Source: a virus. From it: a stretch of DNA of 64,000 nucleotides. The position numbers and the translations under genes were made by a program. Below, piece by piece: positions 19,140 through 59,698 of this stretch; within the stretch, counting starts at the first letter, position 1, and each line of letters begins with the position of its first letter. The notes under the pieces were generated by a model that saw only the letters and a program-made list of their open reading frames with translations, was not told where the DNA came from and did not search any database. Where the stretch lies: the IMG/VR virus record IMGVR_UViG_3300009157_000003, positions 6,776 to 70,775 of that record; one strand, written 5' to 3'.

Positions 19140-20233
19140 TGGCCGCGGTCTGGGCGAGCGCGAAGATCCTCGAATTCGACTACGCGGGGATCGAACAAGT
19201 CCTGATGGGCTGGTTCTTCCAGTCCGCCCGGTACATCCGCATCGCCAAGCTCGGCACGCACGCGATCGTCGCCTCGACGGTGTTGCACCGGCAGACGCCG
19301 CGGATCTGGTCCCCGGCCGACCTCTCGCTCCCCGATAAAGAGATCGCCGCGTACCTGAAGACGATCAAGAAGACGGAGGATGAAGCGGTCGGCCTCGTGT
19401 ACGATCAGTGCAAGCGCACGGTGCACGGGACGGCGTACGGTCTGACGACACACGGCATGGTCCGGAATTTCCCGACGATCTTCCCCACGCTCAAAGTGGC
19501 GGAGGAGACGCAGCGGATCTACTTCGACGTCGCCCCGGAGGTCCCGGAGTTTCACACGTCGGTGCGCCATACCGCGCATCAGCAGAAGTACCTCGGCGGC
19601 GCGGCGACGTACCAGTACCTCCCCGCCGAGCGGAAGGTGATCGGTCATCCCTATGGGTACAAACTCTGGCTCTGGTCCGTTGTCGCGTACGAACGGCTCA
19701 ACCCCGGCCAACTCCTCTGGCGACAGAAGCGCAAGCTCCCCACGATCGAGATCAATGGGATCTGGTACGGGATCACCCTCGGGGAGGACGCCAAACGTGC
19801 TGCGGCGTTCTACCCCCAAGGGACCGCACGAGGCGTACTCACAGATGCCTGTTTCCCCCTCTTTGACCCGGAGGATCCTCTCGCCGAATCCTGTTATATC
19901 GGCGACTGCTATTTCGGCCGCACTCCGCTACGCGCGCCGATTCATGATTCCCTCTTAATCGAAGCGCCGACCCGGATGGTCGATCGGATCATCGAGCGCG
20001 TCTGCCGGGCGATGATGCGGCCGATCGACGCGATGCCGTGCCCGCCGGAGTGGGGGATGGGCGAGTACCTCACCGTCGGGGTGGACGGGAAGATCGGCGC
20101 CGACTGGGGCTCGATGGTCGGGCTCGACCTGCCCCGGTACGAGGACTTAGAGATTGCGAGCGACAGCCCGTACACCCCCGCGGAGGACGAAGACGAGGAT
20201 GACGTCCTGGATCTGGAAACGAGGATTGCATGA
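19139..20233 (+). CDS. polA: Family A DNA polymerase C-terminal catalytic part (palm/fingers)
   Basis: Motif A EFDYAGIE, motif B KRTVHGTAYG, PQGTA, motif C IHDSLLIE; GTG start overlaps the upstream TAG. Confidence 0.9.
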   Translation: MAAVWASAKILEFDYAGIEQVLMGWFFQSARYIRIAKLGTHAIVASTVLHRQTPRIWSPADLSLPDKEIAAYLKTIKKTEDEAVGLVYDQCKRTVHGTAYGLTTHGMVRNFPTIFPTLKVAEETQRIYFDVAPEVPEFHTSVRHTAHQQKYLGGAATYQYLPAERKVIGHPYGYKLWLWSVVAYERLNPGQLLWRQKRKLPTIEINGIWYGITLGEDAKRAAAFYPQGTARGVLTDACFPLFDPEDPLAESCYIGDCYFGRTPLRAPIHDSLLIEAPTRMVDRIIERVCRAMMRPIDAMPCPPEWGMGEYLTVGVDGKIGADWGSMVGLDLPRYEDLEIASDSPYTPAEDEDEDDVLDLETRIA

Positions 20234-25437: not shown

Positions 25438-26180
25438 TAGAAGCGAATCCCGCCGAACGCGCTGCCCTGTCCGGACGCGAGCGCGGGCGTGGTGTACGAC
25501 CCGCCGCCGTACACGCCCGGGGTACTGGACGCGCCCCGATTCTGGTACGCCTTGATGAAGTCGGTGAGCATCATGCCTGCGTCTTCGCCGAACTGCGCGG
25601 ACCGGTTGGCGTTGGCCTCGCCCTGCTGGAATTGAAGCTGCTGCTGATTGAGCGATCGCCCCATCAGGGCATCGAGCGAGCCCATCGACGCGGCGAGGCC
25701 CTGCTGACCCGCGCCGCTCGCCGAGAGCCCCAACTGCGCGGCGGATCCGGCGGCGCCCGCGCGCATCATCGGCGCGAGATTGCCGAGCCGTCCGGCTTTG
25801 TCCCGGGCGAGGTTCGCGCTGGCGACGTCCCGCGAGGCGCCGCGCACGCCGGAGCGATCGAGATTGCTCTCGGCGCCGCGATAGATGTCGGTGATCTCGG
25901 AGCGCTCCGGCGCCGTCGTCGATCGCAGCGCCGCGCGATCGCCCGTGAGGAGCCGCGAGTAGAAGTCCCCCGACTGCTGGACGAGCGGCATCCCGGTTTG
26001 GAAGAGTTGCGCGCCTTGTTGCTGCTGTTGCTGCGCGCCCGCCGTTTGCGCGGTCCGGAGCGGTGCGTCGGCGGCCATCGCCTTCTTCTGGGCGTTGGAC
26101 TTTTTCTTCGCGGAGATCGCCCCGCCGACGGCGCTGATGCCACTGGCGATGAGCGGGATGAACGGAATGACCGCAGGCAT
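25437..26180 (-). CDS. Ejection/DNA-pilot protein (P22 gp7 position)
   Basis: Hydrophobic Gly/Ala N-terminus followed by KKKS and a Gln-rich helix. Confidence 0.7.
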   Translation of the reverse strand: MPAVIPFIPLIASGISAVGGAISAKKKSNAQKKAMAADAPLRTAQTAGAQQQQQQGAQLFQTGMPLVQQSGDFYSRLLTGDRAALRSTTAPERSEITDIYRGAESNLDRSGVRGASRDVASANLARDKAGRLGNLAPMMRAGAAGSAAQLGLSASGAGQQGLAASMGSLDALMGRSLNQQQLQFQQGEANANRSAQFGEDAGMMLTDFIKAYQNRGASSTPGVYGGGSYTTPALASGQGSAFGGIRF

Positions 26181-32811: not shown

Positions 32812-33978
32812 TTACGACCCCGGCAGCGACCCGAAGGTCAGCAGGCCGCGGCTGTACTTCCACTGCCGAATCGCGGCGGCCTGGGTGTAGATGTAGTGCG
32901 ACATGCCGATCGCCTGCGTCGTCGTCGGCAGCGTCGTCGAGACCTGGACCTCGGCGCCGCCGTTGATCGAGCAGAAGACGGCGGTCCCGGCGGACGCGAC
33001 GCGAATCTTGAAGCGGTACGCAGTCGAGGCGGCGATCGCCGCGATGTCCGCGCTCACCGTCTGTCCGGATCCATCGCCGGTGACGCACTTGAAGCCGGTG
33101 TCGCTCGCGGTGGTGGAGTACCGGATGGCGACGAACTGCTTGGTCGGGGATTGCGTGTCGGTGTCGGTCCAGTTGACCGACGTCAGTCCTTGCCACCAGC
33201 GGATCGACGTGAGGGTGTCGGGCGAGCGCGCGATCCATTCGTAGGTCGGATCCCACCGCGTCTGCGCCTGATTGGTCGTCGCGGGCATCGCGAGGTTCCC
33301 GGCGGTCCCGGCGGAGGCTTGCGACGCGAGATCCACGTACGGATTGTCCGCTTGGTTCGAGAGCGTCGCGCTGAAGCCCTGGACGAGGCTCGTGATCGCG
33401 ACGAGGTACCCGGACGCGACGACCTGCGCGGTCCCCGAGGAGTCGGTCAGGTAGAACGAGATCGATCGGCGACCCACGCCGAACGCCAGCGCGCTGGGGT
33501 CGCCGGTCGGTGCCTTCCACGTGCCGTCGCCGAACCACGCGGTCGCGGACGTCGCGCCGCTGCCGCTGTTCAAATTAGTGACGGGGAGATTCCCGGTAAC
33601 CTGCGTCGCGAGACTCACCTGTCCGGCCGAGAGCACGCCGGAGGTCAGGAGCGCGACACCGGATCCGGTCGCGCGTTTGAGGATCGCGCCGGTGATCCCG
33701 TTGTAGAGCGCGACTTCGCCATCGACGGAGACGCCCGGGCCGGTGACGCCGCCCGCCGCCGGGACCTGTGTCCAGGTGTTCGTGGTGATGCACTGATAGA
33801 GGCCCGCGGACGCGCCGGTCTTGAAGAAGATCGACCGGATCGTGCACGTCGCCGGGAGCGTGCCGGAGCCGGGGACGACCATCGCGGGGTTCTGCGCGAG
33901 GAGGATCCCCGCGAAGAGCGCGAAGAGGGTCGCGACGAACGTGATCGCCACCGCGTGCCGCATGATCAAGCGTCCCAT
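32812..33978 (-). CDS. Tail fibre-like protein with predicted signal peptide (start 33978 or 33963)
   Basis: MRHAVAITFVATLFALFAGILLA-QN leader; GGVTGP.SVDG..A.YNG.TG, LPVTNLNSG, GDGTW fibre motifs; lectin-like C-terminus. Confidence 0.7.
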   Translation of the reverse strand: MGRLIMRHAVAITFVATLFALFAGILLAQNPAMVVPGSGTLPATCTIRSIFFKTGASAGLYQCITTNTWTQVPAAGGVTGPGVSVDGEVALYNGITGAILKRATGSGVALLTSGVLSAGQVSLATQVTGNLPVTNLNSGSGATSATAWFGDGTWKAPTGDPSALAFGVGRRSISFYLTDSSGTAQVVASGYLVAITSLVQGFSATLSNQADNPYVDLASQASAGTAGNLAMPATTNQAQTRWDPTYEWIARSPDTLTSIRWWQGLTSVNWTDTDTQSPTKQFVAIRYSTTASDTGFKCVTGDGSGQTVSADIAAIAASTAYRFKIRVASAGTAVFCSINGGAEVQVSTTLPTTTQAIGMSHYIYTQAAAIRQWKYSRGLLTFGSLPGS

Positions 33979-43505: not shown

Positions 43506-44633
43506 CTACTTCGTGAAGCCGTACATCCCACGCGAGAGGCGCGGGCTGCGGCAGGTGAAGTTTCCGCCGAAGAGGATCTGGCCGGAAACCTGATTGTCGT
43601 CGCGGGCTCCCTTGAACCCGGTGAAGCCGAAGGCGAACTTCGCCGACTGCGCGATGAAGAGCCGGAGGTACGCATCGTCTCCGGACGGTCCGGGGTTGAG
43701 CCACCAGAACGTCTCGCTGTCGGCGTTGTAGTCGCCCAGGTCGGGGTCATCGACGCCGTCCTGCCCGGGGCAGTACTGCGAGACGACGATCGTCGCCTGA
43801 TTGAACTTCATACCGGGCCAGTTGATCTCCGGGTCGAGCACGTCGATCTTCTGTTGCGGGCTGAAGGTCTCCGCGATGAAGCCCATCTCCCGGTTGGTGG
43901 TCAGCCCGAGCTTCGGACGCTCGGCGCCGATCACGCAGGACATGAAGCTGTGCTCCAGGACGCGGAACGACGTGGTCGTGTTCGACACCGGCACGAGGCC
44001 CACGGGCGAGTTCAGCGCAGGCGCGACGGACGCGCGAAGCTGACCGCCGTAGGTCGGGAAGGTGGCACCGGTCCACGTGGTGTTGGTCCCGTCGGTCAAC
44101 GCCTCTTCGAGCCCGTTGATCTCCGCCGTGCGGTCGTTGCCGCCGACGTTCTGCCCGTGATGGAACAGGGCGATCTCCAGGATCGAGGAGAGGGTCAGCG
44201 CCGCGTTCCCCAGATCGACCTTGAGGGTCGAGAACATGGCGGTCGGTCCGGCCATCTCGACTTCGAGGTCTTCCAGGAATTCGGTGACGTTGACTTCGTA
44301 GTACCGCGGGGTGAAGAGCAGACCCGAGTACGTCTGCCGCTTCGTGACGTTGAACGTGGCGCCCTTCTTGTAGGCGCCGCCGCGCATCGGCTTGTAGAGG
44401 TAGTTCTCTTGGATGAGCGGACCGGTCCACTTCCGATTGAACCGTGCCTTCAGGTAGGCCATCAGCGGCCCCGCCTTGAAGAAGTTGTCCACCACCCCTG
44501 GCATGATCCGCTTGGTCGCGACGGTGTTGACTTCGTCGAGTTGGATCGCCATACCGGCGGCGAACGCCAACAACGAGAGAAGGCTCAACAGGCCGCCGAT
44601 CGCAGAGAGATCGGGCAGGTCGATTGGCAACAC
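43506..44633 (-). CDS. Major capsid protein (HK97 fold) with a 27-aa hydrophobic N-terminal extension (alternative start ATG 44552)
   Basis: VVDNFFK..PL..YL, INGL, G...PTYGG..R, C.SPR..G motifs; follows the scaffold gene; GGAG SD and -10 box precede GTG 44633. Confidence 0.85.
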   Translation of the reverse strand: MLPIDLPDLSAIGGLLSLLSLLAFAAGMAIQLDEVNTVATKRIMPGVVDNFFKAGPLMAYLKARFNRKWTGPLIQENYLYKPMRGGAYKKGATFNVTKRQTYSGLLFTPRYYEVNVTEFLEDLEVEMAGPTAMFSTLKVDLGNAALTLSSILEIALFHHGQNVGGNDRTAEINGLEEALTDGTNTTWTGATFPTYGGQLRASVAPALNSPVGLVPVSNTTTSFRVLEHSFMSCVIGAERPKLGLTTNREMGFIAETFSPQQKIDVLDPEINWPGMKFNQATIVVSQYCPGQDGVDDPDLGDYNADSETFWWLNPGPSGDDAYLRLFIAQSAKFAFGFTGFKGARDDNQVSGQILFGGNFTCRSPRLSRGMYGFTK

Positions 44634-44679
44634 GGAGGACTCCGAACGTACACCGGAGCCCGGGCGATCCGATCAGTAG

Positions 44680-45456
44680 CTACGCGGTTTTGCCCGCGAC
44701 GAGTTGCGAGTACTCGTCAGCGGCCGCTTCGGCACTGAAGTCGCCGGGGTTCGGCTTCTGCGTGGTGTCGAGGGCATCCAGAGGGGAGCCCGGATCGCGT
44801 GCGACGCCCGGGAACCGAGGGTTGTGCCCCTGCGCCTGTCGTTCGACCATGCGCCGGGAGACTTCCTTCTCGATCCGTTCGTCGTCCGCTTTCTTGGCTT
44901 TCTCGGCGTACTTGTCCTTGAACCGCTCCTGGTAGACCCCCATCAGGCCGATGTCTTTGACCTGGGGATCTTTCATCAGGGCCACGGTGTCGAGGACCTC
45001 ACCGAAATTCTGGAAGTGACTGAGTACGAGGGTGTTCAACTGCCCGGCAAACGCCGCGTAGTTGCCCTCGCGCTCCGTCAGAATCTTATCAACGTCCTCG
45101 CGGCTGACCCCAGCCGGAGGGGTGTTCGTCGGATCGCCGACGGGCAGCGGATCGCCGGGCTTCCATCCGGCCTTTTTGGCAGCTTCCCCGATCGCCACGG
45201 TGTCCTTCACGTTCTTGTGCCAATCGGTGAGGGTGCCGTGCCACGCTTCGACTTCGGCCTTGCGGGTCTTGACCTCGTCCATCCCCCGCGAGTAATCCTG
45301 CTGTCGGAGCGCCGCGTCCCCGAGGGTGTCGAGCGCGTCACTGACCGCGTCGCCCGCCAGCACCTCGCGCGCCTTCGTTTGAAGGTCGGCGGGGAGCTTC
45401 CCCATGAACACGTCCAAAATGGCCTGACCCGCTTCGCGCTTGTTCGTCGCTGCCAT
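44680..45456 (-). CDS. Capsid scaffolding protein
   Basis: LRQQDYSR motif, charged helical sequence, directly upstream of the MCP. Confidence 0.75.
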   Translation of the reverse strand: MAATNKREAGQAILDVFMGKLPADLQTKAREVLAGDAVSDALDTLGDAALRQQDYSRGMDEVKTRKAEVEAWHGTLTDWHKNVKDTVAIGEAAKKAGWKPGDPLPVGDPTNTPPAGVSREDVDKILTEREGNYAAFAGQLNTLVLSHFQNFGEVLDTVALMKDPQVKDIGLMGVYQERFKDKYAEKAKKADDERIEKEVSRRMVERQAQGHNPRFPGVARDPGSPLDALDTTQKPNPGDFSAEAAADEYSQLVAGKTA

Positions 45457-46863: not shown

Positions 46864-49038
46864 TTATTCGGACCCGGCGCCCGCGTCGTGGCGACTTTCG
46901 GTGACGGTGGTGCGGCCGTCGGACTTCTCTTCCATCTGCGGGGGCGCGCTGCCGGAGGCTTTGCGGCCCGCGGGGTTCTCGGTCATCCCGATCCCCAACT
47001 GGGACTGCGCCATCAGGCGTTCGGTGATCGTCGCCGGGATGCGGAATTCGAGGATCTGCCCGGTCGTCGGGTCCATGATGTACTTGCCGGTCAGCGCCGA
47101 CATCGCCTGTTCGGCGCCCAGCATGTCGCCCCCGGCCTGCGCGGTCGCGGCGGCGGCCATCGCCGATTGGACTTCCTGCTGCGCGCGTTTCATATCGAGC
47201 GGCGGGAGCGGCATCGCGGGCGGCTGCCCGACGTTCGGGATCTCCAACGATTCGAGCAGCGACCAGAAGTCGTACATCCCGCCGCGCGCCAGTTGCAGAC
47301 GGATGAGCTTCTGCTCGGTCGCGTTCATCGCCAGCACCGAGTTGGGCGCGATGGTGAAGACGATCGTCTTCGCGAACGCTTTGGCGCGTTGATCGCGGGG
47401 GAGATCGGCGTCGAACTCGGCTTGGTACGCCGGGTTGGGCTGGCCGGTCGCTTCGTCGTACGCCTTCATCCCAGGGATCAACTGATCCGGGTCGTAGTCG
47501 AAGTCATCGAGGAGCATCCCGGCGTCGCCGAGGATCGTGACCCGCTTGGCGTTGGTCTCGTACTGGAACCGGATGATCTTCATCTGCTCGGCGACGTCGC
47601 GGAGGAAGACTTCGATCTGACGGCCTTCCTGGCGGAGTTCGGGGGTCAGGGCTTCCCAGTACCGTTGGATCGTCTCGGCGCCGGGGAGTTGGCGGAGGGC
47701 CATCAGTTGCATCAGGTTCGGCGTCCCCGAGAGGTCGTCGAACTTGTTGAGCATGAAGTCCATGAACCCTTGCGCGAGCGAGAGGACCTGCGCGGGCGGC
47801 CCCTCGTGCAGCTTGAACCCTTCCTTCATGCCCGTTTGGTTGAGCTTGACTTTAGCGCCCGGGCGCCGCGCGTCGAACAGGCGCATGAAGGATTCACTGA
47901 CGGAGCCGCGATCGAACGAGACGGCGGGGTTCAGCCACTTCTTGATGCCGAGGAGGATGTCGCGCGCGGAGTCGTTGATCGCATCCTGAATCGGCGCGAG
48001 GTCGTTGAGGATCGACAGGCCGAGGAATTGCCAGGGGACTTCCCACAGCTTCAGGCGCGAGACCGGAAACTGCCCGTGCCAATAGGTATTGGGGCCGTCG
48101 TAGAGGACGAACTCGGGGGTGGCGAGGATCATCCGCTTGTACGGGTAGAGATGCTCGCCGGGCTTGACGACGTACGACCAGTTGGCGCCGGGCGAGCCCA
48201 TCGCGATCGGCTTGGTGGTCAGGTTCTTGGTGCGATCGTTCAGGAACGTGCGGTAGAGGATGATCTCGCCCGAGCGGATGCGCGACGCCGCGGCGGGTTG
48301 GTTCAGGCCCGCCAGGGTGTCGTTCGCCGGGCTGATCAACCGGGCAACGGTCTGCCGAAAGCGCCCCATCAGCGTGGAGATGAGCGAGTCGGTCGTCGGG
48401 CGGAAGACGTCGGCGAAGGTCGGGTACAACCCGCGCAGGGCGTTGACGGTGTGGCCCTCGCGCAGGATCAACCCATCCCAGTCTTGAATCGACGTAGACA
48501 TCGGCGCCGGGCGGATCGGCAGCGTGTCGCGGCAATCGCGCGGACTCAACCGAATATCCCCGCCGAGACCGAAGAACGGATCCCACTCGGTGACGCAGTC
48601 GCCGGTGCCGCCCGCGAGCGCGTACTTCACGACGTTCCCCAGCGAGACGTCCATCATCGTGGTGATCCACGAGGCGACCGTGAGCTTGTTGAGGAGATCG
48701 GCGTGCGGGGTGAACGCGGGGTTCGTGGCCTTGTACGAGAACAGCGGCTTGAGATCGGTGAGCGCGGAGACGTGCGCCTGGACGACCTTCTTCGATTGGT
48801 TGATGATGAGGCCGGGGTTGAGGTACGGGAGCGACGCTTCGGACGCGCGCTGTTCGCCGATGACGTACTTCTGCCCGACCTCGATGCGATCGTAGGACGG
48901 GTCGGCGCGGTTGATCCGATCGCCTTCCTGCACGGCTTCGCGGAGCCAGCCGAGGACGCGCGGATCCCCGCCGGACTTCAGCGCGTCGAGCGTCATCGGC
49001 GGGAGCGCTTCGATCCCGCTCGGACTGAAGTCGGCCAC
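46864..49038 (-). CDS. Portal protein (P22-like)
   Basis: IINQ, A...L..L, G.G....WDP, Y.HG.FP, L.PIQD.IN motifs; AGGAG SD; size and position. Confidence 0.85.
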   Translation of the reverse strand: MADFSPSGIEALPPMTLDALKSGGDPRVLGWLREAVQEGDRINRADPSYDRIEVGQKYVIGEQRASEASLPYLNPGLIINQSKKVVQAHVSALTDLKPLFSYKATNPAFTPHADLLNKLTVASWITTMMDVSLGNVVKYALAGGTGDCVTEWDPFFGLGGDIRLSPRDCRDTLPIRPAPMSTSIQDWDGLILREGHTVNALRGLYPTFADVFRPTTDSLISTLMGRFRQTVARLISPANDTLAGLNQPAAASRIRSGEIILYRTFLNDRTKNLTTKPIAMGSPGANWSYVVKPGEHLYPYKRMILATPEFVLYDGPNTYWHGQFPVSRLKLWEVPWQFLGLSILNDLAPIQDAINDSARDILLGIKKWLNPAVSFDRGSVSESFMRLFDARRPGAKVKLNQTGMKEGFKLHEGPPAQVLSLAQGFMDFMLNKFDDLSGTPNLMQLMALRQLPGAETIQRYWEALTPELRQEGRQIEVFLRDVAEQMKIIRFQYETNAKRVTILGDAGMLLDDFDYDPDQLIPGMKAYDEATGQPNPAYQAEFDADLPRDQRAKAFAKTIVFTIAPNSVLAMNATEQKLIRLQLARGGMYDFWSLLESLEIPNVGQPPAMPLPPLDMKRAQQEVQSAMAAAATAQAGGDMLGAEQAMSALTGKYIMDPTTGQILEFRIPATITERLMAQSQLGIGMTENPAGRKASGSAPPQMEEKSDGRTTVTESRHDAGAGSE

Positions 49039-49039
49039 G

Positions 49040-49552
49040 CTACTCTCCTGACAGCAGGGGGCTCGCGGTGTCCTCGGTGACGCCCGGGCCGAGCGCGCCG
49101 TCGCTGTGATCGACGGCCTTGAAGGCGCCGCGGCGGCCGAACTTCCGCTTCGTCTCGGCGGAGAGCGCGACCGGAGTGTCGCCGACGGCCGCGCGCGGAT
49201 CGCCGAAGACATTGACGTCGCCGTTCGAGTGATCCTGCGACCACATGCGGAAGGACAGCGCTTCGCCCTCGCCGTTCTTCGCGGCTTGCGCGGTCTCGCG
49301 TTCAATCTGCCGCATCTGCTGGATCGACGTGACCTCGACCTCGCGATAGGAGCCGTCGGGCTGTTTGATGTGCACCGGGAAGGGGCGGACCTGGAGATCG
49401 ATCGCGCCGACGGCCGGGCACCAGTCCATCTTCGTCGGCACGTGCCCGTTTAGGCAGAGCGGCGGATTCTCAGAGGCCCGCTGCGCCACCGGGCGGTAGA
49501 TGTCCCGCAGGACGACGGCGCAGACGGGGCAGACGTAGTCGTGGAGCGGCAC
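49040..49552 (-). CDS. FmdB-like zinc-ribbon protein
   Basis: MPLHDYVCPVC...C..GH..M motif. Confidence 0.7.
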   Translation of the reverse strand: MPLHDYVCPVCAVVLRDIYRPVAQRASENPPLCLNGHVPTKMDWCPAVGAIDLQVRPFPVHIKQPDGSYREVEVTSIQQMRQIERETAQAAKNGEGEALSFRMWSQDHSNGDVNVFGDPRAAVGDTPVALSAETKRKFGRRGAFKAVDHSDGALGPGVTEDTASPLLSGE

Positions 49553-50205: not shown

Positions 50206-53184
50206 TCACTTCCCGATCGACGAGACGACGAGCCCGGTCGGCCCGCAGACCCCGATCGTCTCGGGGCTCGTGACCGCCGCGATGCTCGTCGCCGTCGTCC
50301 ACAGCACCCGGAACCGATGCGGCCCCGCCGACAAGGTCGGGATCGGCCGGGAGTACGGCGCCGTCGCGTCCACCGTGCTGATGCTCACCCACGCGGCCTT
50401 GACCAGATCGAAGCGCTGGAAGAGCGCCCGCGGCCCCGTCATCCCCGTCGGTGGGTCGGCGTTGATCGTGTCGCCTTGGCAGGTGCGGACGAGGAGGACC
50501 ACCGTCGGGGGCGGGACCAGCCGTGGCCGCTTCTCCTCTTCGATCTCTTCGAGCGGCGGACATTCTTTGCCGCCGTTCTCCGGCTTCGTCGTGATCGTGC
50601 GCTGGTGCCCGCGCGTGCGGGTCTCTTCGTTCGGGCCGGTGATCACCCAGTCGGACCACGGTCCCCACGGATCCCACGGCGACACCACGCAATCGATCGG
50701 ATCGGTCGGCGGCGGGGGCGGGGGCGGTGGGGGCGGCGGCGGCGGCGGCAGCGTGCCGAGCCCGCGATTCATCCGGACGAAGCGCCGCACCGAGGCGAGC
50801 GCCACGGGATCATTGGTGATCGCGGCGGGCCACTGGAAGTACGCATCGATCTCGCCGTCGGTACTGAGCGGGCCGATCGCCCACGCATCGGGGAGGCCGA
50901 CGTAATTGTGCGCGTTCCAGCCGAACCAGAGGTTCAGCGGGTTCGACGGCACGATCGTCGGGCGGACCGGGAAGGCGTAGTGGAACGGGCCGCGTGCGCC
51001 GAATCCCCAGATGCGCTCGTCGTCGAGGGTCTGGTTCGAATTCACACCGGCGGCGATGTCCGGGTCGGTCGGCTTGCGGAGGCGCAGGCGGGTGAGGCCG
51101 TGCCCGCCGATGCCCGAGAAGATCACCGCGCCGCGGGGATCCACGATCGACATCCACGGGTAGTGCGGCGGGCGGGTGTACTGGACCGGGCCGGTACCGA
51201 CGGGCTTGCTGGAATTCGCGCGGCCGAACACCCAGGACTTGAACGTGCCGTCGAGCGAGGTATAGCGGAAGTTTTCGTTGAAGCGATCTTCGCCATCCAG
51301 GCACGTCGGCGGCTGCGGCCCTTCGACCGGCAGCACGCAGCCGGGCGCGGGCGCGAGCGAGGTCGCGTTCCCCCAGTAGATCCCATCCTTCAACCCGGCG
51401 TTGCCCCAGCGATCGACGTCGCCCGTGACCCAGCCCCGCGCCCACCGGCCGTCGAAGCTGCCGTCCGTCATCTGATCGATGAGCGCGGCGGTGTGCGTGA
51501 CGGGGTTGAGCCGACGGAGGGTGTTGAGGCCGCGATCGAAGACCACCAACTCGCCGGTGGAGGCGATGCGGACGAAGTAGGGGAAGTAGATCGTCGGGTT
51601 GGCGCCGGTGACGGTGACCTGCGCGCGGACCGCGGTCTGGCCCCAGCACGCGAGGCGGATATCGACCTCGCAGGTGATGTTGGGCTTGCCGACCAGGGTC
51701 TCGCTGACGCCCGGGCCGCCAAACGCGGTGGTGACGGCGCCGGTGGCGATCTCGATGCGGCGGATCGCGTCGTTGTCGTGATCGCTGACGTACAGGTACT
51801 TCCCGTCGAGGCTCGCGACGAGCGAGAACGGATGGCGGAACCGCGCGGCCGCGCCGACCCCATTGACGTAGCCTTCGCTGTGATTGGGATCCCCCGCGAG
51901 CAGGTAGACGTCCCCCGTCCAGTCCTGGCGATTGACCAGGACCGAATAGATGGCGTTGTCGTAGAACCCGGCGACGAAGACGCGATTCGGGTTCGTCGGG
52001 TCGAGCGCGACGTCCATCGCCTGATGCCAGCCGGGGTCGAGCGGATCGTTCCACCCCCCGGTGACGAAGCGGCCGCGGAATTCCATGTTCTGCCGAATCA
52101 CGGTCAGCGGCTTCTTCACCCACACGGGGTGTTTATCCGGGCGGACGCGCCAGCCGACGACGGTCACGAGTTCGCCGTCGGGGTGCATCACGCGGAGTTG
52201 GCCCGACTTATTGGCGAGCCAGCAGCGGCCGTCGGGATCGCAGACGCCCTGCACGTAGCCGTTCGTCCAGCCGACCCCGCGGGGGCCGTCCTTCACGGGG
52301 AACGCGCGATGCCCGTGATCGCCGTGCGCCGTCGGGTCCGTGTTGCCGTTGTTATTCCACAGCCCGATGTACCCCTCGCTCGCCTTCGGCCAGAGCGCGC
52401 GGACGAAGCGCTTCCCCGCGTCGATCGTGCCGGGGGGTTCTTCCCAGAGCATCTGCGCGCCGAGGAATTGTTGATTGTGCGGTTGCAGCATCTCCTGATA
52501 GAGATCCTGCTGGTACGCGGGCGCGGCGTGCCACGGGGTGACGGTGGTGTCGGCCGGATAGCCGCGGGGCAGGAGCGTCGTGACGTCACGGTACGCGCCG
52601 TCCATCTGCGCGGCTTCGAAGACGTAGTCTTGTTCGTTCTGGCTCAGGAACGGGACGAGCGGGGAGAACGACGGGCGGCCGCCCAGGTGCAGGAACATCG
52701 GGTACGGCGCGAAGTCTTGCATCGTCGGCGCGGTGACGCAGGTCACCGGCTCGAAGAATTGGCAGCCCTTGTTGGCGGACGGGGTCGCCTGAATGTTCAC
52801 GCTCACGTCGTGGAAACCGCCCGGCAGGGTGGCGAGCGCGGGCGCGTCGTGCGCGATCGTGAAGAGGTACGGCGCGTCGAGGAACGGCGAGATCGGGACG
52901 CCGTGGACGGTGTACTGGATCTTCAGTTGCGCCGCGGCATAGTTGGTGAAGACCTCGATGCCGAGGCGATCAATGTGGACTTTGAACGAGATCGACGCGG
53001 CCTCGGGCTCGCCGTGATGGAGGTGCCCCCACCGATCGTCGGTCATCTCCAGCCCGGCGGTCTTGATCACTTTGATGCGCCAGTACGCCCAGGTGTCGGG
53101 CCACCCCAGGGCTTGCATCGCCCAGGCGCCCGCCGAGCCGACGACCAACAGCAGCAATAGCAGCAGGAGTCCGCGACGGTGCAT
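50206..53184 (-). CDS. Secreted NHL-repeat beta-propeller protein with poly-Pro linker and TSP1 (spondin-like) domain
   Basis: GGAGGAGG SD; MHRRGLLLLLLLLVVGSAGAWA leader; GYVNGVGAAARFRHPFSL..LYVSD..N.AIRRI NHL repeat; DCVVSPWDPWGPWS..RTR...NGGKECP. Confidence 0.8.
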   Translation of the reverse strand: MHRRGLLLLLLLLVVGSAGAWAMQALGWPDTWAYWRIKVIKTAGLEMTDDRWGHLHHGEPEAASISFKVHIDRLGIEVFTNYAAAQLKIQYTVHGVPISPFLDAPYLFTIAHDAPALATLPGGFHDVSVNIQATPSANKGCQFFEPVTCVTAPTMQDFAPYPMFLHLGGRPSFSPLVPFLSQNEQDYVFEAAQMDGAYRDVTTLLPRGYPADTTVTPWHAAPAYQQDLYQEMLQPHNQQFLGAQMLWEEPPGTIDAGKRFVRALWPKASEGYIGLWNNNGNTDPTAHGDHGHRAFPVKDGPRGVGWTNGYVQGVCDPDGRCWLANKSGQLRVMHPDGELVTVVGWRVRPDKHPVWVKKPLTVIRQNMEFRGRFVTGGWNDPLDPGWHQAMDVALDPTNPNRVFVAGFYDNAIYSVLVNRQDWTGDVYLLAGDPNHSEGYVNGVGAAARFRHPFSLVASLDGKYLYVSDHDNDAIRRIEIATGAVTTAFGGPGVSETLVGKPNITCEVDIRLACWGQTAVRAQVTVTGANPTIYFPYFVRIASTGELVVFDRGLNTLRRLNPVTHTAALIDQMTDGSFDGRWARGWVTGDVDRWGNAGLKDGIYWGNATSLAPAPGCVLPVEGPQPPTCLDGEDRFNENFRYTSLDGTFKSWVFGRANSSKPVGTGPVQYTRPPHYPWMSIVDPRGAVIFSGIGGHGLTRLRLRKPTDPDIAAGVNSNQTLDDERIWGFGARGPFHYAFPVRPTIVPSNPLNLWFGWNAHNYVGLPDAWAIGPLSTDGEIDAYFQWPAAITNDPVALASVRRFVRMNRGLGTLPPPPPPPPPPPPPPTDPIDCVVSPWDPWGPWSDWVITGPNEETRTRGHQRTITTKPENGGKECPPLEEIEEEKRPRLVPPPTVVLLVRTCQGDTINADPPTGMTGPRALFQRFDLVKAAWVSISTVDATAPYSRPIPTLSAGPHRFRVLWTTATSIAAVTSPETIGVCGPTGLVVSSIGK

Positions 53185-55669: not shown

Positions 55670-55900
55670 CTAGCCGTCGGTCTTCCCACCCACCTGCGGC
55701 GCCGCCAGCGGGGGCGTGTCGATCGGGACCGCAAGGCCCTTCGACGCGAGCCACGCTTCGCCCACGCGGATCACCCGATCGGCGATCTGCTGGACGGCGG
55801 CGATGACCTCGGCGTCGGTCATGCCCGGCTTGCGCCGCAGCAGCGCGGCGATCTCCGGAATGACGACGTTGATCAGGATCGTGTGGATGAGGGGGTTCAC
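55670..55900 (-). CDS. Hypothetical protein next to the lipoprotein
   Basis: GGAGG SD; GTGA coupling. Confidence 0.6.
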   Translation of the reverse strand: MNPLIHTILINVVIPEIAALLRRKPGMTDAEVIAAVQQIADRVIRVGEAWLASKGLAVPIDTPPLAAPQVGGKTDG

Positions 55901-56334
55901 CGGAGACCTCCGAGGGGACGCGGGGCCGCGATCGGGCGCGGAGCCGTCCCGCCCCGGACGGTCGCGAGAATGGTGTCGATCGCGAGGATGTACGCTTCGT
56001 AGGTGGTAGCGATCGGCGGCGGGATCGCGGCCTTCGCTTCATTCCACGCGACGGTGACGCTCGCGAGCCAGCCCTGGGGACTGGTGCGGATCACCTTGGC
56101 CGCGCCGACGGTGAACCGCACGATCGGGATCGCGACGGCGTCGGGGAGGGCCGACTTGGCGTTGGCGTCGATCGCCGCGGTTTGCAGGCGCTCGATGCGG
56201 ATCAGGACTTCGTTCTGGTAGTAGGCTTGGCGCCCCTCGGGCGTCTGGAGGTTCGCCATCTGGCTGGCGCACCCGATCGTGAGGGCGACGAGCACGACGA
56301 CGACGAGCGGCACCGGACGGTAGGGGGATCGCAT
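55897..56334 (-). CDS. Lipoprotein (possible spanin component)
   Basis: MRSPYRPVPLVVVVLVALTIG-C lipobox; lies in the lysis region. Confidence 0.7.
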   Translation of the reverse strand: MRSPYRPVPLVVVVLVALTIGCASQMANLQTPEGRQAYYQNEVLIRIERLQTAAIDANAKSALPDAVAIPIVRFTVGAAKVIRTSPQGWLASVTVAWNEAKAAIPPPIATTYEAYILAIDTILATVRGGTAPRPIAAPRPLGGLR

Positions 56335-56358
56335 GCGCGCGAGTCTAGCACGTCCGGC

Positions 56359-56397
56359 GCCGTCGGAGACTGCCGTCGGAGACTGCCGTCGGAGACT
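56359..56397. repeat. 3 x 13-bp tandem repeat GCCGTCGGAGACT
   Basis: Exact copies at 56359, 56372 and 56385; a further copy at 46106-46118. Confidence 0.9.
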
Positions 56398-56584
56398 AGC
56401 GGCGCGGCGGGATCGGCGGCCCCCAGAAGATGTACCAGAGCGCCACGACGACGATCACCGCCCGGATGATGATCCAGAGCGGGCCGGTGATCGTGAACTG
56501 AAGCAGCGACCCGACCGCCGGGATCACCGCGTACGCCAACACGACGACGACGACGGCGATGAGCGCGCGCACGAAGTACGCCAT
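56396..56584 (-). CDS. Small 2-TM membrane protein (holin-like)
   Basis: AGGAGG SD; two hydrophobic helices; directly after the lysozyme. Confidence 0.7.
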   Translation of the reverse strand: MAYFVRALIAVVVVVLAYAVIPAVGSLLQFTITGPLWIIIRAVIVVVALWYIFWGPPIPPRR

Positions 56585-56593
56585 ACCATCCTC

Positions 56594-57010
56594 CTAGGGA
56601 GATCCGGTCCGCATCTCCCGGGCCAGTCGATGCGCCCGGGTGCCGACGTCGGCCGCCCACTTCGAATCGAGCATCTCGGCGGCGGCCTGATCATAGTCGC
56701 CCCGGTCGAGGGCGGCAATCAGCTTGACAAACGGGCGGAAGCGCGACGCCCCGAGATTGAACAGCATGTTCACGACGACCGCTTGGCGGACCGGGTGGAG
56801 GGTGTCGAACCACGGGAAGCGCCGCGCGTCGGTGATCGCGCCGATGAGATCGTGCTGGAAGAGGAACTCGGCTTCGACGACGGAGATCCCCCGGTCGGTC
56901 AGGTTGCGCCCGCGCCCGATGGTGATCTTCCCGACGGAGTCCACGTAGGGCTTCAGACGGAGTCCTTCATCCCGATCGAGATCCGCCGACAGCCGCGAGA
57001 GATCCATCAT
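56594..57010 (-). CDS. Endolysin, GH24 (T4-like) lysozyme
   Basis: DEGLRLKPYVDSVGKITIGRGRNL (E-X8-D-X5-T), NMLFNLG, AAEMLDSKWA..RA.RL. Confidence 0.95.
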   Translation of the reverse strand: MMDLSRLSADLDRDEGLRLKPYVDSVGKITIGRGRNLTDRGISVVEAEFLFQHDLIGAITDARRFPWFDTLHPVRQAVVVNMLFNLGASRFRPFVKLIAALDRGDYDQAAAEMLDSKWAADVGTRAHRLAREMRTGSP

Positions 57011-57378
57011 GCGCGCGGCGTCGGGTCCGTCGGCGACGGCGCCTGCGCGAGGACATCCGTGCGGCGATTGGCTTCCTCGACCCCGGCGAGACGGCCTTCG
57101 GCGTGCGCGGCGCCGGACGCGGTCTGGATCCACTGTTCGAGCCGGGAGTTGACCGAGAGATGCGTCTCCTGCGACTTCCGGAGCGCGAGGACCGAGGCGA
57201 TCGACGTCGTCACGCCGGTCATGATCACGGCGATGAGGACGGCGTTGTCCTGCTCGGGGCGGAAGACGACCACCGCGACGAGCGCGATGAGTCCGGCGAT
57301 GAAGAGCGAGACGACGGCGACGAGGTAGGGCGTGAGGGAATTCGTCGATGTCGTCGGGAGAGGCAACGGCGGCGGCAT
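57007..57378 (-). CDS. Holin-like 2-TM protein
   Basis: AGGAG SD; two TM helices then VNSRL; coupled to the lysozyme. Confidence 0.65.
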   Translation of the reverse strand: MPPPLPLPTTSTNSLTPYLVAVVSLFIAGLIALVAVVVFRPEQDNAVLIAVIMTGVTTSIASVLALRKSQETHLSVNSRLEQWIQTASGAAHAEGRLAGVEEANRRTDVLAQAPSPTDPTPRA

Positions 57379-57457
57379 CGACGGCTCCTGATCGGTGGAC
57401 CGGAGTGTATCACCAGGAGACCCCCGGCCGCGCCGTGGATCTCCTGGGGCGACGATC

Positions 57458-57700
57458 TTAGCGACGACGCGACTGGGCGGGCGGATCGACCGGCGGCGCG
57501 CCGGGCGTGTTGGCGACGACGGCGGCCGCGAGCGCATCACTCTGGGTGCGGACGCGATCGACGATCGCCTGGATCGCCGCGGGGTTGCCCTTGTTCGCTT
57601 CGACTTCATCGAACAGGGTCTTCAGCAGCGTGGCGGCGGAGCCGTTGACGGTTTCGTCGCGGGCGACTTCAGCTTCGAGGGCGGTCAGATCGAGCGGCAT
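57458..57700 (-). CDS. Small coiled-coil protein
   Basis: GAGGAG SD; L.AEV....TV..SA..LL...DALAAAVVANTP. Confidence 0.7.
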   Translation of the reverse strand: MPLDLTALEAEVARDETVNGSAATLLKTLFDEVEANKGNPAAIQAIVDRVRTQSDALAAAVVANTPGAPPVDPPAQSRRR

Positions 57701-58874: not shown

Positions 58875-59209
58875 CGGTCCTCCCGATGCGTTGCGCGTCC
58901 TCGCGACTCAGGGGTCGGCGCGGGGACGGCGACTTCCTCGCCATCGAGGTCGGCGACGACTTCCTCGGCGGTGGGATCGCGTCCGAGGATGCGACGGAGT
59001 CGAGCTTCGACGGCATAGGCACGTTCCATCTCCCCCGGGGAGGATCGCACGACCTCGACCGGCGCGTCAACGACGGGGGGTGACTGACGGGGGCGCGGGT
59101 AGCCTTCGGCGGCGTCGGCGATGCGATCGAGCGCATCGGCCCCCCGCTTGACCTCGCGGTGAATGCGGCGGAGGGCCAGCGCCGCAGGCGTCCAGGTGAA
59201 CCACTTCAT
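58865..59209 (-). CDS. Hypothetical protein (LGRDPT.EE motif)
   Basis: ATGA coupling. Confidence 0.55.
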   Translation of the reverse strand: MKWFTWTPAALALRRIHREVKRGADALDRIADAAEGYPRPRQSPPVVDAPVEVVRSSPGEMERAYAVEARLRRILGRDPTAEEVVADLDGEEVAVPAPTPESRGRATHREDRWP

Positions 59210-59403
59210 CGGCGGCGCAGGCTGGAGAAGAGCGTGCCGTTCGACCGGAACATCTCGACGAGCCCCGGCATGTAGATCCGCGTCAGGACCTCGTTGACCT
59301 CGGCCAGCCGCACCGGCGTGATGAGCCCCGCCGCGAGTGCCGCGAGGTAGGCCCGGCGCCGATGACGCTGCCGACGACGTTTGAGCGTGCGGGTCGAGCC
59401 CAT
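59206..59403 (-). CDS. Arg-rich peptide with similarity to the major capsid N-terminus (start 59403 or 59499)
   Basis: 15/35 ungapped identities to MCP residues IQLDEV..YLKAR; coupled to the downstream gene. Confidence 0.6.
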   Translation of the reverse strand: MGSTRTLKRRRQRHRRRAYLAALAAGLITPVRLAEVNEVLTRIYMPGLVEMFRSNGTLFSSLRRR

Positions 59404-59485
59404 GTGGAAGAGAACCGGTGGCTGGCCCGCGCGCCTTTCAGCGTGGGGCGGGGCAGGCGTCCCCGCCTTTGCAGCCGACCGGAGA

Positions 59486-59698
59486 TCACACTTTAGCACG
59501 GCCTAGCGGGTCGATCATCGTCGGCCGGTCGCTGATCACCCGGCAGATGATCGACGGCTCGCCGACCACCGGGTCATAGCCGATCACCCCATGCTCCTCG
59601 CCCGGGTGGATGTCACGATCACAGAGGTCGCAACGGGGGAGGACCGGCACCTTGGGCGGCGGATCGGGACGACCGAGGCGGGGGGCGAGCGGGGTCAT
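59486..59698 (-). CDS. Small Cys-containing hypothetical protein
   Basis: ATGA coupling; CDLC. Confidence 0.5.
   Translation of the reverse strand: MTPLAPRLGRPDPPPKVPVLPRCDLCDRDIHPGEEHGVIGYDPVVGEPSIICRVISDRPTMIDPLGRAKV

What the first reader, a model, noticed from the sequence alone, without database searches (positions are those of the whole stretch)
44552..44650. Major capsid protein appears to have a hydrophobic, signal-like N-terminal leader
The in-frame GTG at 44633 has both a GGAG SD and a -10 box, while ATG 44552 has neither. The 27-aa extension MLPIDLPDLSAIGGLLSLLSLLAFAAG is a membrane-like helix ending in an AxA-type site just before the conserved capsid sequence. With the signal-peptide fibres, the secreted NHL/TSP1 protein and the capsid-mimic peptide, this hints at membrane-anchored or export-linked virion assembly. 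Caveats: the n-region is acidic rather than basic, and codon usage there is less GC3-biased.
Basis: partly seen in the sequence, partly recalled or inferred. Interest (0 to 1): 0.8.

Follow-up and report, generated by a model that had tools for sequence, protein, structure and literature searches.

The report
Membrane-type leader on phage capsid protein
The main shell protein of this uncultured 71-kb soil-type phage is made with a short, greasy, membrane-anchor-like front piece that about four in ten of its relatives also carry, which is unexpected for a capsid that must be built inside the cell and whose purpose is untested.

Summary
Observation confirmed and extended. The HK97-fold major capsid protein (MCP, minus strand 43506-44633) has GGAG, a 6-nt spacer, then GTG 44633. 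The in-frame ATG 44552 has no Shine-Dalgarno. The 27-residue extension is membrane-grade hydrophobic (Kyte-Doolittle 1.97-2.15). Only 0.35% of six-frame windows and 0.66% of shuffles reach this.

Of 58 homologous loci, 16 carry a 20-50-residue in-frame hydrophobic leader. In 10 of those 16 no start codon lies within 33 nt upstream of the mature N-terminus, so the leader must be translated. The other 42 have a stop 1-13 codons upstream. Of 119 proteins, 45 are long, needing at least 15 changes of state on the tree.

The leader shows coding periodicity and evolves much faster than the body. No gene co-varies with it. No prohead-type or rhomboid protease family was found.

My reading: a real, facultative signal-anchor or propeptide that holds new MCP at the cytoplasmic face of the membrane. 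It is not an export signal. Its function and fate are inferred only.

I found no description in print. Earlier notes of this scan report similar leaders in at least six other phage genomes.

The parts
44640..44643 (-). Shine-Dalgarno GGAG, 6 nt before GTG 44633
   Evidence: sequence. The same layout, GGAG/GAGG 5-9 nt before the leader start, occurs in 13 of 16 leader-bearing loci.
44553..44633 (-). Leader coding stretch: GTG start plus 26 codons. It has an acidic tail (LPIDLPDLS) and then an 18-22-residue hydrophobic helix ending AFAAG.
   Evidence: KD19 2.15. (T at codon position 2 is 0.46, GC3 0.81). (chance 0.35% and 0.66%). (AlphaFold2 helix at residues 9-25, with low-confidence residues 26-53 (pLDDT below 50) between it and the body).
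44550..44552 (-). In-frame ATG at the position of the start codon of leaderless relatives ('position 1'). It has no Shine-Dalgarno here.
43506..44552 (-). Conserved body of the HK97-fold major capsid protein (348 codons plus stop)
   Evidence: PHROG 9953 major head protein, E 7.5e-8. 612 homologues. All top Foldseek hits are HK97-fold phage capsid proteins.
44680..45456 (-). Upstream gene in the scaffolding position (258 aa). Its stop lies 46 nt before GTG 44633.
   Evidence: Homologues sit directly upstream of the MCP in 53 of 58 loci. The scaffolding assignment rests on position only: no family hit.
46864..49305 (-). Portal protein gene (context for the head module)
   Evidence: tblastn against the annotated portal of Tunturiibacter phage Tunturi_1: E 4e-36, 27% identity over 426 aa. 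No Pfam or PHROG hit.

Best explanation
The capsid gene is translated from GTG 44633, giving a 375-residue pre-MCP. Its first 27 residues are a membrane-type hydrophobic helix joined through a small-residue hinge (AAG) to the N-arm of an ordinary HK97-fold capsid protein.

This leader belongs to a facultative, fast-evolving N-terminal module found in about 38% of this MCP family. The full version has these parts in order:
- a basic amphipathic helix
- a Pro-containing cap (R-A-N/H-P)
- a hydrophobic helix of about 14 residues
- a 4-residue turn rich in H, P, G and D
- a second hydrophobic stretch of about 8 residues
- Gly, then the mature N-terminus

The window carries a shortened, single-helix version.

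My inferred mechanism is as follows. The hydrophobic segment emerges first from the ribosome and inserts into, or lies in, the cytoplasmic membrane as a signal-anchor or helical hairpin. The capsid domain stays in the cytoplasm. New subunits are therefore concentrated or held at the inner face of the membrane until they join procapsids. Either a host protease clips the leader at or near the Gly hinge, or the leader is pulled out and tucked inside the shell.

Shown: the leader is coded, selected for hydrophobicity, obligatory in many relatives and dispensable in others.

Inferred: membrane insertion, topology and removal.
For: Start site.
- GGAG, 6 nt, then GTG at 44633. There is no SD before ATG 44552.
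- Leaderless relatives have an SD before position 1 in 28 of 29 distinct loci.
- Leader-bearing relatives have GGAG/GAGG 5-9 nt before the leader start in 13 of 16.

Obligatory leaders.
- In 15 relatives' loci the codon at position 1 is GGG, GGC, CTG or CTC (plus for L057 and L059).
- In 10 of 16 long loci no ATG, GTG or TTG lies within 33 nt upstream of position 1.
- Among the 35 long proteins listed with context, position 1 is G in 32 and L in 3.

Selection.
- T at codon position 2 is 0.36-0.56, against 0.05-0.24 in the other two frames. GC3 is 0.67-0.91.
- K, R, D and E are absent at positions -1 to -6 and nearly absent at -13 to -26, across 45 leaders.
- Chance hydrophobicity is 0.35-0.66%.

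Anchor-like evolution. Leader identity is 47% where bodies are 90-99% identical, 26% at 80-89%, and about 16% at 60-79%.

Structure. AlphaFold2 models the leader as separate helices with pLDDT about 71-75, followed by a low-confidence stretch (pLDDT below 50) before the body.

Topology. In leaders longer than 30 residues, the part before the last 30 holds 69 K/R against 25 D/E. The turn has K/R at 0.07 or less per position. This fits both ends of the hairpin being cytoplasmic.

The hinge sits exactly where leaderless forms start.

Precedent for a dispensable MCP leader cut by a host enzyme: phage 80alpha (abstract of PMC5744158).
Against: - No experiment or proteomic datum exists for this family. 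No RNA run holds the locus.
- In the long-type leaders the two hydrophobic stretches (about 14 and about 8-13 residues) are short for bilayer-spanning helices.
- No prohead protease family (S78, S49, S77, ClpP) and no rhomboid was found in the complete genome (the S77 search rang in no control genome, so it shows nothing). No gene co-varies with the leader. Removal therefore has no identified agent.
- A membrane-tethered N-arm is topologically awkward for closing a shell.
- The window keeps an ATG at position 1, and its closest relative is leaderless: 90-91% identity, with a stop 4 codons upstream of position 1. The window's own leader could therefore be recent and of little consequence.
- No close homologue of the window's specific leader was found. 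Its homology to other leaders rests on one MAFFT alignment of a P-x-L-S/T-A cap plus a helix.
Confidence: 0.5

Rival explanations
1. Interior assembly or stability element with no membrane involved. The hydrophobic helix or hairpin stays on the MCP and faces the capsid interior with the N-arm. There it bundles under hexamers and pentamers, like a miniature HK97 delta domain or a built-in cement, and helps capsomer formation or shell stability.
For: - No protease was found.
- A separate scaffold-position gene exists, as in protease-free P22- and T7-type systems.
- The long-type helices are too short for standard membrane spans.
- AlphaFold2 gives confident stand-alone helices.
- Patchy presence resembles that of decoration proteins.
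Against: - A structural contact element should be conserved about as well as the body. Instead it has 47% identity where bodies are 90-99% identical.
- So hydrophobic an N-terminal segment would be expected to be captured by the membrane-targeting machinery (established knowledge, not tested here).
- Nothing in the models packs it against the body.
Confidence: 0.22
2. In this window the working MCP starts at ATG 44552. The upstream open frame would then be a recent, largely inconsequential extension. Alternatively both starts are used, giving a minor long form and a major short form.
For: - The window alone among the 16 long loci has ATG at position 1.
- Its nearest relatives are leaderless: P0001 and L050 at 90-91%, P0002 at 86%.
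- The spacer between the scaffold-position gene and the MCP is not alignable between them.
- GC3 is lower in the leader.
Against: - There is no SD before ATG 44552, whereas 28 of 29 leaderless loci have one there.
- A good SD precedes GTG 44633.
- The hydrophobicity is far above chance.
- Codon periodicity fits the frame.
- The layout equals that of relatives where the leader is obligatory.
Confidence: 0.15
3. Classical Sec signal peptide cut by signal peptidase I. The MCP or part of it would be exported, and virion assembly would be export-linked.
For: - A hydrophobic core followed by A-A-G fits the -3/-1 rule in the window.
- Other late proteins of this phage have signal-like N-termini: the 992-aa and 388-aa proteins.
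Against: - The n-region is acidic.
- Pro follows the junction Gly in 8 of the 35 leaders listed with context, and Leu stands at position 1 in 3 of 35.
- Long-type leaders have two hydrophobic stretches, which predicts a hairpin with the passenger left inside.
- A capsid that packages DNA through a terminase must be cytoplasmic (established knowledge).
- Leaderless close relatives make the same capsid.
Confidence: 0.03
4. Conflict-driven accessory. The leader would sequester or mask free MCP or its N-arm from host immune sensors that detect capsid proteins, or would take part in lysis timing or exclusion, rather than in assembly itself.
For: - Rapid gain and loss: at least 15 changes, at least 7 forced by well-supported branches.
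- Very fast sequence turnover.
- The same genome has a separate small gene that copies the MCP N-arm, which could be a decoy.
Against: There is no direct evidence. No defence or anti-defence gene was tied to it, and no co-varying gene was found.
Confidence: 0.07

Closest known systems
HK97-fold major capsid proteins of tailed phages (nearest solved by fold: SU10, Mic1, phiXacJX1, A-1(L), lambda; nearest cultured by sequence: Tunturiibacter phages Tunturi_1 and Tunturi_2, 31% identity)
   Same: The body has the HK97 fold and matches PHROG 9953. The gene order from portal to scaffold-position gene to MCP matches Tunturi_1.
   Different: None of these is described with a membrane-type N-terminal leader. 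Tunturi_1 MCP starts directly at the N-arm.
N-terminal leader of Staphylococcus phage 80alpha capsid and scaffolding proteins, removed by the host protease Prp (PMC5744158, abstract read)
   Same: A short N-terminal MCP extension, processed by a host rather than a phage enzyme, and dispensable: pre-cleaved or uncleavable CP mutants are viable. This parallels the on/off distribution seen here.
   Different: By recall, not checked in a call here, the 80alpha leader is not a membrane-type hydrophobic segment and Prp is confined to Firmicutes. Here cleavage is not shown and no agent is known.
HK97 delta domain and other prohead-protease-cleaved MCP propeptides (recalled)
   Same: An N-terminal extension that precedes the N-arm and faces the procapsid interior.
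   Different: Delta domains are about 100 residues long, soluble and scaffolding-like. They replace a scaffold gene and come with an adjacent protease. Here the leader is 20-50 hydrophobic residues, a scaffold-position gene is present, and no S78, S49 or ClpP protease was found (the S77 search was uninformative).
Major coat proteins of filamentous phages (M13 procoat, Pf3 coat; recalled)
   Same: A major virion protein that resides in the cytoplasmic membrane before assembly. The window's acidic tail plus single helix resembles the Pf3-type N-out/C-in design.
   Different: They are unrelated in fold and in assembly route (extrusion through the membrane). There is no homology.
Sec signal peptides cut by signal peptidase I
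   Same: A hydrophobic core followed by small residues. In long-type relatives there is also a basic N-terminal part.
   Different: The window's n-region is acidic. Pro at +1 is frequent. Most relatives have two hydrophobic stretches. The passenger protein is cytoplasmic.
Similar leaders noted by this scan on other phage MCPs (notes e1-5797431 and e1-5847350 with a phage rhomboid; e1-5984645; e1-3431378; e1-6084944; e1-5353533)
   Same: A membrane- or signal-like N-terminal leader on a tailed-phage MCP, conserved among relatives, with no description found in print.
   Different: They concern unrelated MCP families and genomes: by-sequence look-up found no look-alike. The Bacteroidales case co-occurs with a phage rhomboid, and none is present here. 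These are unchecked AI notes.

Membership tests
HK97-fold major capsid protein | HK97 fold of the body (spine helix, A and P domains) | tested here: met
   AlphaFold2 model with pLDDT 61.6 and pTM 0.60. The top Foldseek PDB hits are all phage HK97-fold capsid proteins: E 1.6e-4 to 2e-3, probability 0.84-1.00, TM 0.29-0.47. The model is of moderate quality.
HK97-fold major capsid protein | Sequence-family membership and head-module context | tested here: met
   PHROG 9953 'major head protein', E 7.5e-8. tblastn to the annotated major head protein of Tunturi_1, E 7e-17. The portal homologue lies upstream. There was no Pfam hit and no PDB sequence hit.
Sec signal peptide (signal peptidase I type) | Positively charged n-region | tested here: not met
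   The window's n-region LPIDLPDLS has two Asp and no Lys or Arg. Long-type relatives do have a basic N-terminal part.
Sec signal peptide (signal peptidase I type) | Small residues at -3 and -1, and no Pro at +1 | tested here: inconclusive
   Met in the window (A-A-G before M). In relatives, Pro follows the junction Gly in 8 of the 35 leaders listed with context, and Leu stands at position 1 in 3 of 35.
Sec signal peptide (signal peptidase I type) | Passenger protein works outside the cytoplasm | not testable with these tools
   Established knowledge says a terminase-packaged capsid is cytoplasmic. Leaderless relatives at 85-90% identity make the same protein.
Twin-arginine (Tat) signal | RR motif before the hydrophobic core | tested here: not met
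   There is no Arg in the window's leader.
Prohead-protease-processed propeptide (HK97 delta-domain type) | Phage-encoded prohead protease (S78, S49, S77 or ClpP type) | tested here: not met
   There were 0 matches at E<=0.1 in the complete 70,775-bp record for PF04586, PF01343, PF03420 and PF00574. The S77 search rang in no control genome and is uninformative. This phage is remote from known families, so a novel protease is not excluded.
Prohead-protease-processed propeptide (HK97 delta-domain type) | Long soluble scaffolding-like N-domain replacing a scaffold gene | tested here: not met
   The leader is 27 residues and hydrophobic. A 258-aa gene sits in the scaffold position.
Rhomboid-linked MCP leader (as in scan notes on Bacteroidales phages) | Phage-encoded rhomboid protease co-occurring with the leader | tested here: not met
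   PF01694 gave 0 matches in the own genome, while the control rang in 14 of 14 genomes. No gene cluster was specific to the 6 leader-bearing genomes against the 5 leaderless ones.
Signal-anchor or monotopic hairpin membrane anchor (functional class, not a homology family) | Uncharged hydrophobic stretch(es) of membrane grade, charge asymmetry, and actual membrane insertion | tested here: inconclusive
   Hydrophobicity and charge pattern are met. The long-type helices are short, about 14 and about 8-13 residues. Membrane insertion cannot be tested here, and no dedicated TM or signal predictor was available.

The most novel reading that the evidence does not exclude
Several unrelated lineages of tailed phages, this soil family among them, would have independently evolved capsid subunits that are first inserted co-translationally into the cytoplasmic membrane through an N-terminal anchor. 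A host intramembrane or membrane-proximal protease would then release them. Procapsid assembly would therefore be staged on the membrane. This would be a step in HK97-type capsid assembly that has not been described.
Probability: 0.3. Interest if true: 0.85.

Novelty: new variant of a known kind. Interest (0 to 1): 0.62.

Why it matters
Tailed-phage capsids are taken to assemble from soluble cytoplasmic subunits. The textbook membrane link is T4's portal initiator (recalled). This MCP family has more than 600 homologues in the searched collection, mostly from metagenome assemblies. About 38% of its members are made with an obligatory membrane-type leader, and close relatives do without it. That gives a natural on/off series for asking three questions:
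- Is capsid protein staged at the membrane?
- How is it released?
- What advantage does this give: local concentration, timing, protection from host sensors, or shell stability?

It also matters for annotation. Gene callers choose the short start wherever an ATG or GTG is available, as they would in this window, and so hide the feature.

Tried and rejected
- Homologues of the window's own leader. A search scored on residues 1-45 alone returned nothing at E<=0.001 from 92 candidates. A 45-residue query cannot reach significance in a database of that size, so this is uninformative.
- Sequence search of PDB with the family profile: 0 hits at E<=1.
- Pfam: no family for the MCP or its neighbours.
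- Separate small hydrophobic gene (fission/fusion idea). In leaderless loci the scaffold-position gene stops 20-76 nt before the MCP start. None of the loci I could read in the truncated output showed a hydrophobic ORF in any forward frame there (output cut at 20,000 of 33,280 characters). Rejected.
- Linked partner gene. No ORF cluster within +-3 kb is specific to the long loci, 16 long against 42 short. None is specific in whole genomes, 6 long (window, G001-G005) against 5 short (G006-G010). The only 4-of-6-versus-0 clusters are confined to one MCP clade. The sample is small, ORFs were called crudely by GC3, and the BLAST threshold was 1e-5.
- Alignment of the scaffold-MCP spacer with the nearest leaderless relatives: not alignable, so the origin of the leader DNA is not resolved.
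- Promoter and terminator scan of 44300-45000: none found.
- Sequencing runs: no RNA holder listed.
- Complex prediction was not used. I make no binding claim that a pass would change.
- Double-glycine bacteriocin leader, prepilin leader and 2A-like skipping were considered from recalled consensus patterns and dropped. The patterns do not fit, or are not conserved in relatives. No tool test was made.
- Literature. Five full-text searches listed no paper whose title or abstract start describes a transmembrane or signal-type leader on a tailed-phage MCP. PMC12934983 was checked by passages and is irrelevant. A search for the Tunturiibacter phages found no paper. Subscription journals and supplements were not searchable.
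No SignalP, TMHMM or DeepTMHMM was available.
Full report
What is there. The finding lies on the minus strand. ORF listing and the reverse-complement read show, in order:
- a 258-aa gene ending at TAG 44682-44680
- 46 nt of spacer containing TACGTT (44650-44645) and GGAG (44643-44640)
- 6 nt, then GTG 44633
- 27 codons that read (M)LPIDLPDLSAIGGLLSLLSLLAFAAG
- ATG 44552, which opens MAIQLDEVNTV... and runs to the stop at 43506

The body is a capsid protein.
- It matches PHROG 9953 'major head protein' at E 7.5e-8.
- It has 612 homologues in the large protein collection.
- The AlphaFold2 model (pLDDT 61.6) has only HK97-fold phage capsid proteins among its best PDB matches.
- The nearest cultured relatives are the Tunturiibacter phages, at 31% identity.
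- The 813-aa gene upstream matches the Tunturi_1 portal at E 4e-36.
- The window is 64 kb of a complete 70,775-bp IMG/VR virus record with direct terminal repeats.

Is the observation more than chance? Yes.
- The leader's best 19-residue Kyte-Doolittle window scores 1.97, or 2.15 when it runs into MAI.
- That is within the range of the best TM-like or signal-like segments that the same scan flags in this phage's other ORFs (1.6-3.1).
- Only 33 of 9464 stop-free 27-residue windows in the six-frame translation reach it. Only 132 of 20000 shuffles of the 81 nt are open and as hydrophobic.
- In the leader frame, T at codon position 2 is 0.46, against 0.12 and 0.24 in the other frames. GC3 is 0.81, against 0.90 for the body.

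Which start? No purine-rich motif precedes ATG 44552. I classified 58 homologous loci: 56 IMG/VR loci minus L008 and L049, plus 3 genome contigs and the window.
- 42 loci are 'short'. They have ATG or GTG at the mature N-terminus ('position 1'), an in-frame stop 1-13 codons upstream, and the scaffold-position gene ending 20-76 nt upstream. In 28 of 29 distinct sequences a GGAG, GAGG or AGGAG lies 4-11 nt before the start.
- 16 loci are 'long'. The scaffold-position gene ends about 130-176 nt upstream in the long loci I could read (output partly cut). The frame is open into the MCP.
- In 13 of these 16, GGAG/GAGG lies 5-9 nt before the first start of the open frame. L011 has GAGGAG further away. 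L009 and L010 have none canonical.

The window has exactly the long layout.

Relatives show the leader is translated. In the 15 long loci other than the window, position 1 is GGG, GGC, CTG or CTC. In 10 of the 16 no ATG, GTG or TTG occurs within 33 nt upstream of it. So the MCP can be made only with the leader.

Among the 120 best protein hits, 119 were classifiable. Of these, 45 carry an extension of 19-48 residues and 74 do not. In the 35 listed with context, position 1 is G in 32 and L in 3.

All 16 long loci show the same codon periodicity.

Right-aligned on the junction, the 45 leaders give a clear architecture.
- Positions -1 to -8 are hydrophobic, with no K, R, D or E at -1 to -6.
- Positions -9 to -12 form a turn rich in H, P, G and D.
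- Positions -13 to -26 are hydrophobic.
- Positions -27 to -30 carry an R-A-N/H-P cap.
- Before that lies a basic amphipathic part. In leaders longer than 30 residues, the part before the last 30 holds 69 K/R against 25 D/E.

AlphaFold2 on a long-type member (P0047) gives helices at 2-13, 15-28 and 37-40 with pLDDT 72-75. A low-confidence stretch (residues 41-66, pLDDT below 50) follows before the body.

The window's leader is a short version. It shares this form with P0049, P0077/L057 and P0041. It has an acidic tail, a P-x-L-S-A cap that MAFFT aligns with the P-R-L-T/S-A cap of long leaders, and one helix of about 20 residues.

Evolution. On a tree of MCP bodies, the long/short label needs at least 15 changes, at least 7 of them forced by well-supported branches. 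Shuffled labels give a mean of 36.

One caveat applies. 'Short' protein calls may include gene-caller artefacts. The DNA-level classification above does not have this problem.

The window's nearest relatives are leaderless.
- P0001 and L050 are 90-91% identical, with a stop 4 codons upstream of position 1.
- P0003, at 85%, has a different 40-residue leader.

Leader sequence turns over much faster than the body. Identity is 47% where bodies are 90-99% identical, 26% at 80-89%, and about 16% at 60-79%. Only the physico-chemical pattern is kept. That is how signal and anchor sequences evolve, not how shell contacts evolve.

More distant relatives (30-53% identity) mostly align from their first residues and so have no leader. 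A few fragments and two low-GC members (P0190, P0260) carry hydrophobic N-terminal extensions.

What it is not. It is not a separate small gene. The frame has no stop, and the leaderless loci I could read show no hydrophobic ORF in the spacer (output partly cut).

It is not a general signal-peptidase-I substrate. The window's A-A-G before M fits, but the junction is Gly-Pro in 8 of the 35 leaders listed with context and has Leu at position 1 in 3 of 35. The window's n-region is acidic. The passenger protein must stay in the cytoplasm.

It is not an HK97-type delta domain. It is too short and too hydrophobic, and a scaffold-position gene is present. No S78, S49 or ClpP protease was found in the complete genome. 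The S77 search was uninformative.

Earlier notes of this scan suggested a phage rhomboid partner. None is present here.

No gene co-varies with the leader, either within +-3 kb or in 6 leader-bearing against 5 leaderless genomes of 53-76 kb, at least 10 of them 93% or more complete.

How it most likely works. Shown: the leader is encoded, translated in many relatives, selected for membrane-grade hydrophobicity, and dispensable over short evolutionary distances.

Inferred: as the first part of the chain to emerge, such a segment should partition into the cytoplasmic membrane.
- Long-type leaders look like an in-plane basic helix plus a short hairpin with both ends inside.
- The window's acidic tail plus single helix looks like an N-out/C-in anchor.
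- In both cases the capsid domain stays in the cytoplasm.

This would concentrate or hold subunits at the membrane.

Because the N-arm of HK97-type proteins faces the procapsid interior and meets the scaffold (established for P22 and 80alpha; abstract of PMC5744158), a tether must be released. Release could come by cleavage near the conserved Gly hinge. That hinge sits exactly where leaderless forms begin, so cleavage there would recreate their N-terminus. Alternatively, the short hairpin could be extracted.

The 80alpha case shows that a host protease can trim a dispensable MCP leader. No agent is identified here. I put 0.85 on 'translated and selected' and about 0.5 on the full anchor reading.

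The main rival, at 0.22, is an uncleaved interior helix bundle acting as a mini-scaffold or cement.

A reading in which the window itself mainly uses ATG 44552 keeps 0.15. This is because of the retained ATG and the leaderless nearest relatives.

Novelty. Five full-text searches found no description of a transmembrane or signal-type leader on a tailed-phage MCP. Subscription literature and supplements were not covered.

The scan's own notes report the same kind of leader on unrelated MCPs in at least six other phage genomes. None is a sequence look-alike of this one. These notes are unchecked AI notes, not independent evidence. They do suggest a recurrent, undescribed phenomenon rather than a curiosity of one genome.

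I file it as a new variant of a known kind: an MCP N-terminal extension or propeptide of a membrane-anchor type.

Noticed in passing
window 59206-59499 (-): A 97-aa ORF whose last 44 residues are a paralogue of the MCP N-arm. BLASTP gives E 1e-7 and 19 of 44 identical. The alignment starts at ALAAG against the leader's AFAAG. An Arg-rich tract precedes it. A similar N-arm-like ORF exists in one relative (G003:C1:70086-70187, E 3e-5 to the MCP), but was not seen in the other nine genomes.
   Followed up: partly
window 55670-57609 (-): A cluster of small membrane proteins next to the terminase region. It looks like a lysis cassette: a 76-aa protein with an N-terminal TM, a 145-aa protein with a lipoprotein-like LTIGC signal, a 62-aa protein with two TMs, and a 200-aa protein with two TMs and a weak holin-family hit (PF16081, E 0.0082, below cut-off).
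   Followed up: no
window 50206-53184 (-), 32812-33978 (-), 25437-26180 (-): Other late proteins start with hydrophobic segments. The 992-aa protein has a classical signal-like start and a sub-threshold TSP1_spondin hit (PF19028, E 2.7e-5, 24.8 bits against a cut-off of 41). The 388-aa protein has a signal- or anchor-like start. The 247-aa protein has an uncharged N-terminal TM followed by KKK.
   Followed up: partly
P0190, P0260 (proteins); L061:3938-4120: Two low-GC MCP relatives (at least 33% identity to the window MCP where listed) carry a hydrophobic extension of about 24 residues directly before DPL(F/Y)SEI. In the cultured Tunturi_1 phage the matching ANPLFSEI motif is at the very N-terminus of the MCP. 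This may be an independent gain of a leader or a gene-caller extension. I did not check the DNA.
   Followed up: no
P0131 (protein): A 187-aa MCP fragment (78% identity to the window MCP) has a 55-residue leader with two longer hydrophobic stretches of about 17 and 19 residues. Each could span a bilayer. It is the most membrane-like variant seen.
   Followed up: no
L057, L059 (genome contigs): Two of the three family members found in species-representative genomes lie on contigs binned as Gemmatimonadota or Gemmatimonadales MAGs. Both carry the leader. The third is binned as Patescibacteria and is leaderless. This is a weak hint at the host. The contigs may be phage DNA binned by chance.
   Followed up: no
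window 46864-49305 (-) and most late genes: The portal, the scaffold-position protein and 8 other late proteins gave no Pfam or PHROG family at E<=0.001, apart from a tail-fibre C-terminus on the 925-aa protein. This phage group is very remote from described families.
   Followed up: partly
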